A DNA stretch of 64,000 nucleotides, taken from the NCBI GenBank assembly GCA_951406725.2, contig OX597833.1, positions 6,572,001 to 6,636,000 of the forward strand, given 5' to 3'. Source of the DNA: Octopus vulgaris (taxonomy: Eukaryota). Shown here one piece after another: positions 30,101-33,100 of this stretch. Position 1 is the first letter of the stretch, and every line of letters starts with the position of its first letter. The notes under the pieces were generated by a model. That model saw only the letters and a program-made list of their open reading frames with translations. It was not told the DNA's origin and searched no databases. The translations under genes and the position numbers were made by a program.

Positions 30101-33100
30101 TGTGTGTGTTAAAATTTTTTTTTCCTACATCGAGAAGATGGAAACATCTATAGCGACCAATACCAATTTCAGAATGGTAAGGTACTAATGATCAGAGAAG
30201 AACCAACGATAAACACCAGTACAGACGCTCATGAGGAATTTCCAGTATCGTTAATTGATATGAAGCTAAACCGTTCTATGCTTGGATATATAAATACACA
30301 CACACACACACACACACACACACACACACACACACACACACACACACACACACACACATATATATATTTCAAAATGTGACCGCGTGTGTTTCGTTGGCGA
30401 TTTTTTTTCCTCTGTCTTCCCTTCTCTGGATCTTTCCTTCTCCTATGTTTCCGACGAAGAGCTCCGCTCGAAACGATAAACCCTCCTTCTTTCCTTCTTT
30501 CTTGAGCATCCAATAATACTATATTTGTTCCACGTCCTCGCGTTGTTGTGTTTTTTTGTGCTTTCTTGTTTGGATTAACTATATATACATACATACATAC
30601 ATACATACATACATACATACATACATACATACATGCATATATATATATATATATATATATATATTTATTATATAGAAGGAGCTTCTACAGGACTAGTACT
30701 GTTTCATTCAAGAGAAATCTTCAGGAAGCTATTTAACAAGAATTGTATTAGCATTTATACATTTAGGCAGGTTTAAAGGAGTGGTGGTGGGGGACTTTTT
30801 GGGGGTAGGCATAGCGCAAAATATCATACTTGGGGGAGTGGTCAAGGAGTCAGTGGTAAGTTAGATGAAAGAATAGATAAATAAAAAAATAAAAAAATAA
30901 ATAAAAAATAAAAAAATAAAATAAAAAAATAAAAAAATAAAATAAAAAAATAAAAAAATAAAAAATATAAAAAATATATATAAAAATATATATATAAAAT
31001 ATATATATAAAAAAATATATATATAAAAAAAGGGGGGATAGAGTTATAGGTAAATAAGGAGATTCTCACTTATACCTATACACACATGTATACGTATCTA
31101 CACACACATACATACATACACATATATATACACACACATATATATATATATATATATATATATATATATACATACATATACATATGTACACACATACATA
31201 CAAATCTACATACACACATACATACACCCGCCCACATATACAAATTTATACACATGCACATGCCTATACCTGTCTACACATACACACACGTATATATGCA
31301 TACACTCACTCCCATGCATGCACGCATACACACATGTATATATATATATATATATATATATATACCCACGACCACACATACATATATACACATAAAAATA
31401 TATATTCATACGCACATACACTCATGCACACACAACACACCTAGTTCCCTATATACACATATTTACACCTATATATACATACACCCACATACACCTATGT
31501 ACACATATATATATATAAACATATACACGCATACATATATATACATGTGTGCACATACATACATACACACATATATACATACACATACACATACACATGT
31601 GTACCTATACATACCTACACATACACACATACATACATACAAATATACATATACATATATATATATACAATCCAATACAGGCCCATTCCCTAATTTTAAT
31701 TTTATTATCTTCATTTATTACTTTTGTTATCTTTGATCGCTAGGGCTAAGAATCCTGGCAATGGCTGCATGTCCATTTGTCTGTCTACTAGAAGGCAAGT
31801 ACTCATTCCCGCACGCACACTCATATATATATATATATATATATATATATATATATACATAGCGAGAGTGAGAGACAGAGAGATTGAAAAGTAGGGATCC
31901 AAAGAATCAAACGGAGCTACATGTATTTATATGTATGTTTGTATATGTGTAATGCTGGTGTGATATCTATTATATAATTAACGTGATTTATGAAACAGCT
32001 GTAAACGAATGGAATAAACATCTATTCTCTGACCTCACCACTCTTATCTCTTCCCTTTCTCTCTCTCACCTCCATGATGTGTGTATTTATATATATATAT
32101 ATATATATATATACACGCATTTTTTTTCTCTCCTTGTTTCTGTCCGTGTTTCTTTTCTGTGTATCTTTCTGTCGAAGAGTGTAGGCTCGAAACGTAAAAG
32201 ACTTTTTCTATTTCTATTCCTGAGCGCTATACTAATACATTTGTTTGTTTGTACTCCACCTGCCACCGTCTTTTGTTTATTTTCGTAAACTTTACCATAT
32301 ATATATATATATATATATATATATATATATATATATATATATATATATATATATATATATATATATATATATATATATATATATATATATATATATATAT
32401 ATATATATATATATATATATATATATATATATATATATATATATATATATATATATATATATATATATATACTTATTTGTCTATTTATCTATGCTAAAGC
32501 TTATCAAACAAGTCTGTCTATTGTTTCAGGAACTAACGTTCACAAAAAGAGCCGAGCAGATTTCTGTCGAATGCGATTCAAAACGAAAGGTTATGCCAAG
32601 TTGTACGCCACGAGTCAACACATCAAGGCCCCGGGAAAGACACTCTATTACTCAGGTAGGTCAGCTTCGGGCTCAGCCCTTTCCGCTCCCTGTCACTGCC
32701 TCTAAACATTATGTCATTACTATAACTTAAACATTATTATTATTATCTCTTAAACAGTATCATTGCCTCCACAGTTAAACCCCTATCAAAAATCTTCATT
32801 AACCTCTCTTAAGCCCTACCATTGACCCCTGTCGGATACCATCATTGTTTTCCTTTAAACACCATGCTCCCTCTACTTAAACGACTTTAATATTTTCTCT
32901 TAAACACCTTCATTATCCGCCCTTAATCACCAACAGTACAACCTTTCAAGAAAAAAAATGGTCCTCCGTCAGTTACGACGATGAGTGTTCTAGTTGATCC
33001 GATCAACGGAACAGCCTACTCGTAAAATTAATGTGCAAGTGGCTGAGTACTCCACAGACCCGCACAAGCTTAACGTAGTTCTCAGGGAGATTCAGTGTGA

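What the first reader, a model, noticed from the sequence alone, without database searches (positions are those of the whole stretch)
32110..32298. Multi-copy ~210-bp element carrying a non-canonical minimal hammerhead (CUGUNGA-A core)
Seen: four copies (15062-15262 -, 32110-32298 +, 45638-45848 -, 61712-61925 +), each abutting (TA)n. They share UCUUU-CUGU(C/U)GA-A-GAGC(GUAG)GCUC-GAAA-CG-U(A/U)-AAAGA. Stem III is only the palindrome ACGU, so it could fold only as a dimer. A6 is replaced by U in the three best copies, so this looks like the family state rather than decay, and there is an extra A after A9. Inference: a non-autonomous Penelope-mobilised family, or solo pseudo-LTR, using a variant ribozyme core and accumulating in TA microsatellites.
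Basis: partly seen in the sequence, partly recalled or inferred. Interest (0 to 1): 0.7.

Follow-up and report, generated by a model that had tools for sequence, protein, structure and literature searches.

The report
Penelope retroelement end with U6 hammerhead
The short repeats are leftover 3' ends of a recently active Penelope-like jumping gene, a known kind that carries a small hammerhead-shaped RNA motif; the unusual part is that this whole lineage has U in place of a normally fixed A, which likely slows self-cutting, and cutting is untested.

Summary
The four copies are real, and all four have U at core position 6. They are not a separate non-autonomous family. They are 5'-truncated ends (pseudo-LTRs) of an autonomous Penelope-like element (PLE): 29 of 30 loci chosen by its ORF end in this sequence. 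The ORF (968 aa) has RT, a CX4CxxC linker and GIY-YIG; 9 of 11 long loci carry a second pseudo-LTR upstream. The extra A after A9 and the ACGU stem III are published standard features of PLE minimal hammerheads. U6 is the unusual trait: 96 of 100 copies sampled with that position free (17,628 matches), and the consensus of six successive subfamilies. Across subfamilies only N7, H17 and one outer stem I base change (1 of 32 constrained columns against 42 of 113 flank columns), so the motif is under selection. Published mutagenesis predicts weak cutting. Copies starting at the cut site are not in excess, in this family or an A6 sister family. This scan has already reported U6 cores in this genome and in others. 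Verdict: new variant of a known kind, activity untested.

The parts
32112..32298 (+). 5'-truncated pseudo-LTR copy (focal copy, subfamily S2-like), between two (TA)n runs
32164..32201 (+). Minimal type I hammerhead motif: stem I 32164-32168 with 32197-32201, C3 32169, U6 32172, extra A 32176, stem II 32177-32188, GAAA 32189-32192, palindromic ACGU 32192-32195, predicted cut after 32196
   Evidence: numbering as in PMC4209133
61712..61926 (+). 5'-truncated pseudo-LTR copy (S1); C3 61795, U6 61798, U17 61822
45637..46433 (-). Longer 5'-truncated copy (about 800 bp of 3' UTR plus pseudo-LTR, youngest S1 type); C3 45770, U6 45767, U17 45743
15062..15266 (-). Older, decayed pseudo-LTR copy (S3); U6 15183, core broken at G5 and A15.1
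32299..32472 (.). (TA)n run at the 3' end of the focal copy (a shorter run lies at 32088-32113)
30443..30485 (+). Hammerhead motif of a sister family with canonical A6 and a 3-nt loop II (this copy has U4 to C and U16.1 to A); comparison only

Best explanation
The repeat is the 3' end (pseudo-LTR) of an autonomous Penelope-like retrotransposon, and the short copies are 5'-truncated insertions next to (TA)n; it carries a minimal hammerhead motif with an inherited U6 that is likely a slowed, dimer-dependent ribozyme still under selection. Shown: element anatomy, the pseudo-LTR / ORF / pseudo-LTR partial tandem, U6 fixation, (TA)n association. Inferred: the GIY-YIG domain nicks (TA)n, reverse transcription starts at the short TA stretch ending the pseudo-LTR and usually stops early, often 60-100 nt upstream of C3. 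Two motifs in one transcript (4.2-4.6 kb apart) would pair their ACGU palindromes to form stem III and cut slowly after H17, probably with protein help. Most integrated templates were uncut or re-ligated at the 3' motif.
For: Identity: 29 of 30 ORF-selected loci end in the element, all 29 with U6. 968-aa ORF, RVT_1 E 8e-8, atlas clusters with GIY-YIG/RVT_1 at 0.98, 794 homologues at E<=1e-30 among 7994 scored. CX4CxxC linker and CCHH-type GIY-YIG in the 28 of 30 loci where the motif was found, some copies mutated. Upstream pseudo-LTR in 9 of 11 long loci, same junction in 8. Nearest ORF pairs up to 99.8% identical. U6: 8,936 U6-Y7 matches against 602 non-U6; 96 of the first 100 of 17,628 with positions 3-8 free, as conserved as C3 (98), U4, G5, G8 (96 each), while N7 takes all four letters (hand count). 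Selection: 1 of 32 constrained columns varies among six subfamily consensuses against 42 of 113 flank columns, Fisher p 6e-5; N7 changes at all 5 steps. H17 is A 77, U 22, G 1 of the first 100 (hand count). (TA)n at the 3' end in 52 of 63 copies against 27% background.
Against: No cleavage data. Single mutants in the CUGA turn showed low activity in a full mutagenesis of one hammerhead (PMC9901934); A6C cut more than 10,000-fold slower in 0.3 mM Mg than in Mn in one ribozyme (PMC7151607). No excess of copies starting at the cut site: 12 true junctions against 34 matches (16 of the comparable A17 type) at a control site 13 nt upstream. The A6 sister family shows none either, about 20-24 against 4,144 intact, so this test does not discriminate. 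No compensatory stem change inside the lineage, loop II is invariant too, and a 15-nt invariant run exists in the flank: conservation could serve protein binding rather than catalysis. Free-energy folding does not favour the hammerhead fold for monomer, dimer or whole end. Copies were collected with motif-containing patterns, which biases the conservation test.
Confidence: 0.55

Rival explanations
1. Same element, but U6 has switched cutting off. The hammerhead-shaped segment is kept as a non-cutting fold or sequence that the element protein binds.
For: CUGA-turn mutants are weak in vitro. In an anole PLE, catalytic mutants did not affect insertion in vitro and no reads ended at the cut site (PMC11167929). 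Naiad PLEs spread without canonical hammerheads (PMC8557442). No cut-site footprint here. Loop II is as invariant as the core.
Against: The core positions that do change among subfamilies are N7 and H17, the two that catalysis leaves free, and H17 is almost never G. G5, G8, G12, A13, A14 did not change through six subfamilies.
Confidence: 0.3
2. Many of the 210-bp copies come from solo pseudo-LTRs transcribed from an internal start and copied in trans, like a SINE.
For: 31 of 63 copies have 5' ends 60-100 nt upstream of C3, against 19 shorter and 13 longer. One head-to-tail trimer of short units exists (L144). A 2026 preprint links tandem retrozymes to PLE pseudo-LTRs (abstract and introduction). 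A hairpin that could stall RT just upstream is no more stable than shuffles (z about 0).
Against: The 5' ends are spread over about 30 nt, not one base. Short and ORF-bearing copies intermix in the tree and share subfamily markers. Longer truncations of many lengths exist.
Confidence: 0.2
3. The motif is a decayed relic, and U6 is just one neutral change in a master copy.
For: Individual copies decay neutrally, mainly at CpG sites.
Against: U6 persisted through six master subfamilies with 14% to 4.5% copy divergence while flank columns took 57 substitution steps and constrained columns took 1.
Confidence: 0.07

Closest known systems
Minimal type I hammerheads (min-HHR) in pseudo-LTRs of metazoan PLEs (Cervera and De la Pena 2014, PMC4209133)
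   Same: Location in both flanking repeats, 4-5 bp stem I, extra nucleotide between 9 and 10.1, G10.1-C11.1 pair, palindromic 15.2-16.2, mostly solitary truncated copies, predicted dimer.
   Different: U6 instead of A6; their search descriptor demands CUGANGA and would miss it. Stem II is 4 bp, shorter than the 7-8 bp they report for Schistosoma.
Neptune/Nematis-type EN+ PLEs (as described in Craig et al. 2021, PMC8557442)
   Same: [quoted passage not shown]
   Different: No RT tree against reference PLEs was built, so Neptune versus Nematis is not resolved.
Natural A6C hammerhead of phage Bcep176 (PMC3088659, PMC7151607)
   Same: Natural change at core position 6.
   Different: C rather than U, a single prokaryotic motif, measured activity (low in Mg, good in Mn); here a fixed state in tens of thousands of animal copies, activity unknown.
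Non-LTR retrozymes (PMC7229834; bioRxiv 10.64898/2026.07.22.740005)
   Same: Short animal repeats with type I hammerheads, linked to PLEs.
   Different: Retrozymes are tandem arrays with canonical cores; these copies are dispersed, of variable length and continuous with an ORF-bearing element.

Membership tests
EN+ Penelope-like element | Single ORF with RT and C-terminal GIY-YIG endonuclease | tested here: met
   968-aa ORF, RVT_1 hit, GIY-YIG motif, atlas and homologue hits. The Pfam scan itself did not score GIY-YIG in this copy.
EN+ Penelope-like element | Partial tandem forming pseudo-LTRs, 5' truncation, occasional inverted 5' copy | tested here: met
   9 of 11 long loci with upstream direct copy of 149-1039 nt before C3 (8 measured), 1 inverted, 1 truncated
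Neptune/Nematis clades | CX2-5CxxC linker between RT and EN | tested here: met
   C-x4-C-xx-C in most of 28 copies printed; definition
Neptune clade | RT phylogeny with reference elements | not tested
   no named reference sequences were at hand
PLE min-HHR | Stems I and II, extra nucleotide after A9, G10.1-C11.1, GAAA, palindromic stem III, UH | tested here: met
   compensatory pairs only between families (stem I C-G versus G-C; stem II GAGC/GCUC versus GGAC/GUCC, the latter in one copy)
PLE min-HHR / hammerhead consensus | Core CUGANGA with A6 | tested here: not met
   U6 in 96 of 100, A6 in 2; no Rfam hammerhead hit on a natural trimer up to E 10 or among the 150 of 392 window hits shown
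Hammerhead ribozyme (function) | Self-cleavage after H17 | not testable with these tools
   no raw RNA reads were offered; the genomic footprint test was negative in both U6 and A6 families
Non-LTR retrozyme | Tandem arrays of unit-length repeats with canonical type I hammerhead, no ORF | tested here: not met
   dispersed copies of variable length, joined to an ORF in long copies; one trimer seen

The most novel reading that the evidence does not exclude
A PLE lineage has spread to tens of thousands of copies, and is still recently active, with a hammerhead whose cutting is switched off or nearly off by U6 while the rest of the core stays under selection: the hammerhead fold would serve PLEs as a protein-binding or positioning module, with cleavage dispensable. 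U6 families would be a class invisible to CUGANGA-based searches and a natural test of what PLE hammerheads are for.
Probability: 0.3. Interest if true: 0.68.

Novelty: new variant of a known kind. Interest (0 to 1): 0.37.

Why it matters
The role of hammerheads in Penelope-like elements is an open question (PMC8557442, PMC11167929). This genome holds a U6 lineage and an A6 sister family side by side, so one dimer cleavage assay would show either that a position treated as invariant tolerates U in this context, or that these elements thrive without cutting. It also means descriptor searches that require CUGANGA undercount PLE hammerheads. The element itself is of an ordinary kind.

Tried and rejected
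Rfam scans found no hammerhead model hit; expected for a motif lacking stem III and A6. Random genome sampling gave only 3 copies in 200 kb, too few for statistics; it implies roughly 40,000 copies with a wide margin. Idea that an older A6 or C6 subfamily is the ancestor: A6 and C6 copies are scattered in the tree, and the oldest pattern-defined group is 79 U, 14 C, 7 A of 100 (hand count), so no A6 ancestor was identified, although position 6 is somewhat more variable there. Cut-site footprint: negative and non-discriminating. Test that the two pseudo-LTRs of one locus are each other's closest match, as a circular template would predict: true in 4 of 8 loci, inconclusive. RT-stalling hairpin upstream of the 5' hotspot: predicted in S1 but z about 0. 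Sequencing runs: no RNA holder listed. Contigs of five runs under four other-or-same organism labels cover the motif, but the difference tables miss even the known N7 variation, so they say nothing on position 6. PDB sequence search: no hit. Lunse et al. 2017 and Arkhipova et al. 2017 are not held.

Full report
Observation. The four copies are present at the stated places. All four carry U at hammerhead position 6. One is about 800 bp long rather than 210. A fifth motif at 30451 belongs to a sister family with A6. The window lies in a 2.8-Gb, microsatellite-rich animal genome. From recall of its SINEs I guess a cephalopod; this was not tested.

What the repeat is. The 30 best genomic matches share a sharp 3' end, nearly always followed by (TA)n, and differ at the 5' end. 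Five extend upstream, and one runs into RT and GIY-YIG coding sequence. A search with that coding stretch gave 30 loci; 29 end in the element and all 29 have U6. One locus has an open 968-aa frame. It hits RVT_1, atlas clusters carrying GIY-YIG and RVT_1 and 794 homologues among 7994 scored. The linker is CX4CxxC and the endonuclease has two cysteines in the GIY-YIG core, the pattern described for Neptune and Nematis PLEs (PMC8557442 passages). Of 11 long loci extended upstream, 9 have a second copy of the end in direct orientation, 1 has it inverted and 1 is truncated; 8 share the same short TA-containing junction into the body. The two motifs lie 4,234-4,590 bp apart in the 8 loci with both. 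The nearest ORF pairs are up to 99.8% identical, so the family was active recently. The short copies are therefore 5'-truncated pseudo-LTRs of an autonomous PLE.

What is ordinary in the motif. Cervera and De la Pena report the nucleotide between 9 and 10.1, the G10.1-C11.1 pair, the palindromic 15.2-16.2 and dimer dependence as standard for PLE hammerheads, with low activity in vitro (PMC4209133, parts 1-2 of the text; supplement passages). Microsatellite bias is known for Neptune and Naiad PLEs. Here 52 of 63 copies have TA repeats at the 3' end (background 27%) and 28 of 63 at the 5' end (background 7%); part of the 3' TA is element-encoded.

What is unusual. Exact patterns give 8,936 copies with U6 and Y7 against 602 with any other base at 6; of the first 100 of those, 71 are C, 19 A, 10 G (hand count). 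With positions 3-8 free there are 17,628 matches; in the first 100, position 6 is U 96, A 2, C 1, G 1, and position 7 is U 42, A 24, C 23, G 11 (hand count). With G12 to stem I free there are 18,636 matches, and departures in the first 100 are almost all CpG transitions. I sorted 133 of 166 collected copies into six subfamilies by their 3' ends; 33 did not fit the rules and were left out. Mean divergence from consensus runs from 14% to 4.5%, and U6 is the consensus in all six. Between consensuses, 1 of 32 constrained columns varies against 42 of 113 flank columns (p 6e-5), N7 changes at every step and H17 switches between A and U. Caveats: copies were collected with motif patterns, the subfamily order is my ranking by divergence, the flank also holds a 15-nt invariant run, and no stem pair covaries within the lineage. 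Sister families in the same genome keep A6 (14 of 14 copies with the TCC loop).

Does it cut? Not testable here. A full mutagenesis found low activity for single mutants in the CUGA turn (PMC9901934 passages; per-mutant values not seen). A natural A6C variant cuts slowly in Mg and well in Mn (PMC3088659 passages; PMC7151607 parts 1-2). If cut RNA were integrated, copies should start at the cut site. They do so no more often than at a control site with the same TA microhomology: 12 true junctions of 20 matches, against 34 matches, 16 of the comparable type. The A6 sister family gives about 20-24 true junctions of 80 matches against 4,144 intact copies. The test is negative for both, in line with the anole PLE, where uncut RNA was the main substrate and cutting needed protein (PMC11167929 part 1 and passages). 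Folding does not favour the active structure, as expected for a motif this small. I put slowed but working cleavage at 0.55 and a non-cutting role at 0.3, because the core positions that drift are the two that catalysis leaves free.

The 210-bp mode. Of 63 copies from a walk along contig C1, 19 start less than 60 nt upstream of C3, 31 at 60-100 nt and 13 further up. This hotspot explains the apparent unit length. Its cause is open: an internal start site or an RT pause; the predicted hairpin there is not exceptional.

Novelty. Paper searches listed no report of a U6 core; one search showed 0 occurrences of A6U in its 3 papers and one search returned none. The published descriptor requires CUGANGA. 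A 2026 octopus repeat annotation lists recently active Penelope families and never mentions hammerheads (PMC13282606 passages). Other papers seen: PMC6765202, PMC6155905, PMC7229834 (passages) and bioRxiv 10.64898/2026.07.22.740005 (part 1 of 5; supplements closed). Lunse et al. 2017, which is devoted to PLE hammerhead variants, and Arkhipova et al. 2017 could not be read and may already contain this variant. This scan has noted U6 cores before, in two other pieces of this genome and in other genomes; those notes are unchecked and are not counted as support. Verdict: a new variant of a known kind, interest 0.37.

Noticed in passing
window 30443-30485 (+); L016, L025, L110, L111, L127 and others: Sister family with canonical A6 and loop TCC, at least 4,144 copies; many copies have U4 to C (CCGACGA), possibly a second inherited core variant.
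   Followed up: partly
L185 and L186 (G000:C1:3779214 and 4092821): Two U6 copies with a different stem II top (UUCG loop, U-U mismatch), perhaps an older sub-lineage.
   Followed up: partly
window 32222-32226 (+) and all families: A GAGCG motif about 25 nt downstream of the cut site is kept in U6 and A6 families and is complementary to the 3' strand of stem II; it could form an alternative, inactive pairing. Inference only.
   Followed up: no
L144:5630-6370: Head-to-tail trimer of short ends separated by (TA)n, the geometry that would allow a close dimer.
   Followed up: partly
L026:1490-1714: One copy outside (TA)n is flanked by an 11-bp direct repeat that looks like a target-site duplication.
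   Followed up: no
L122, L150, L152, L224: Pairs of copies in opposite orientation a short distance apart, as described for PLEs.
   Followed up: no
L133: Full-length locus whose 3' pseudo-LTR differs strongly from its 5' one (36 mismatches in about 290 nt), probably a chimera of two subfamilies.
   Followed up: partly
window 7697-8905 (-): 403-aa frame resembling the RT and C-terminus of a LINE; judged by motifs from recall, not searched.
   Followed up: no
window 39204-40424 (+): 407-aa open frame with a low-complexity N-terminal part, possibly a host gene exon.
   Followed up: no
window 55890-56845 (+) and 12980-13327 (+): Fragments resembling a Tc1/mariner transposase and a Helitron Rep domain; by recall, not searched.
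   Followed up: no
window 9857-10202, 25155-25627, 43216-43636, 47269-47690, 61274-61706; 8999-9351, 16703-17047, 32964-33219, 55136-55556: Two further dispersed SINE-like families, often next to (TA)n; no tRNA gene found.
   Followed up: no
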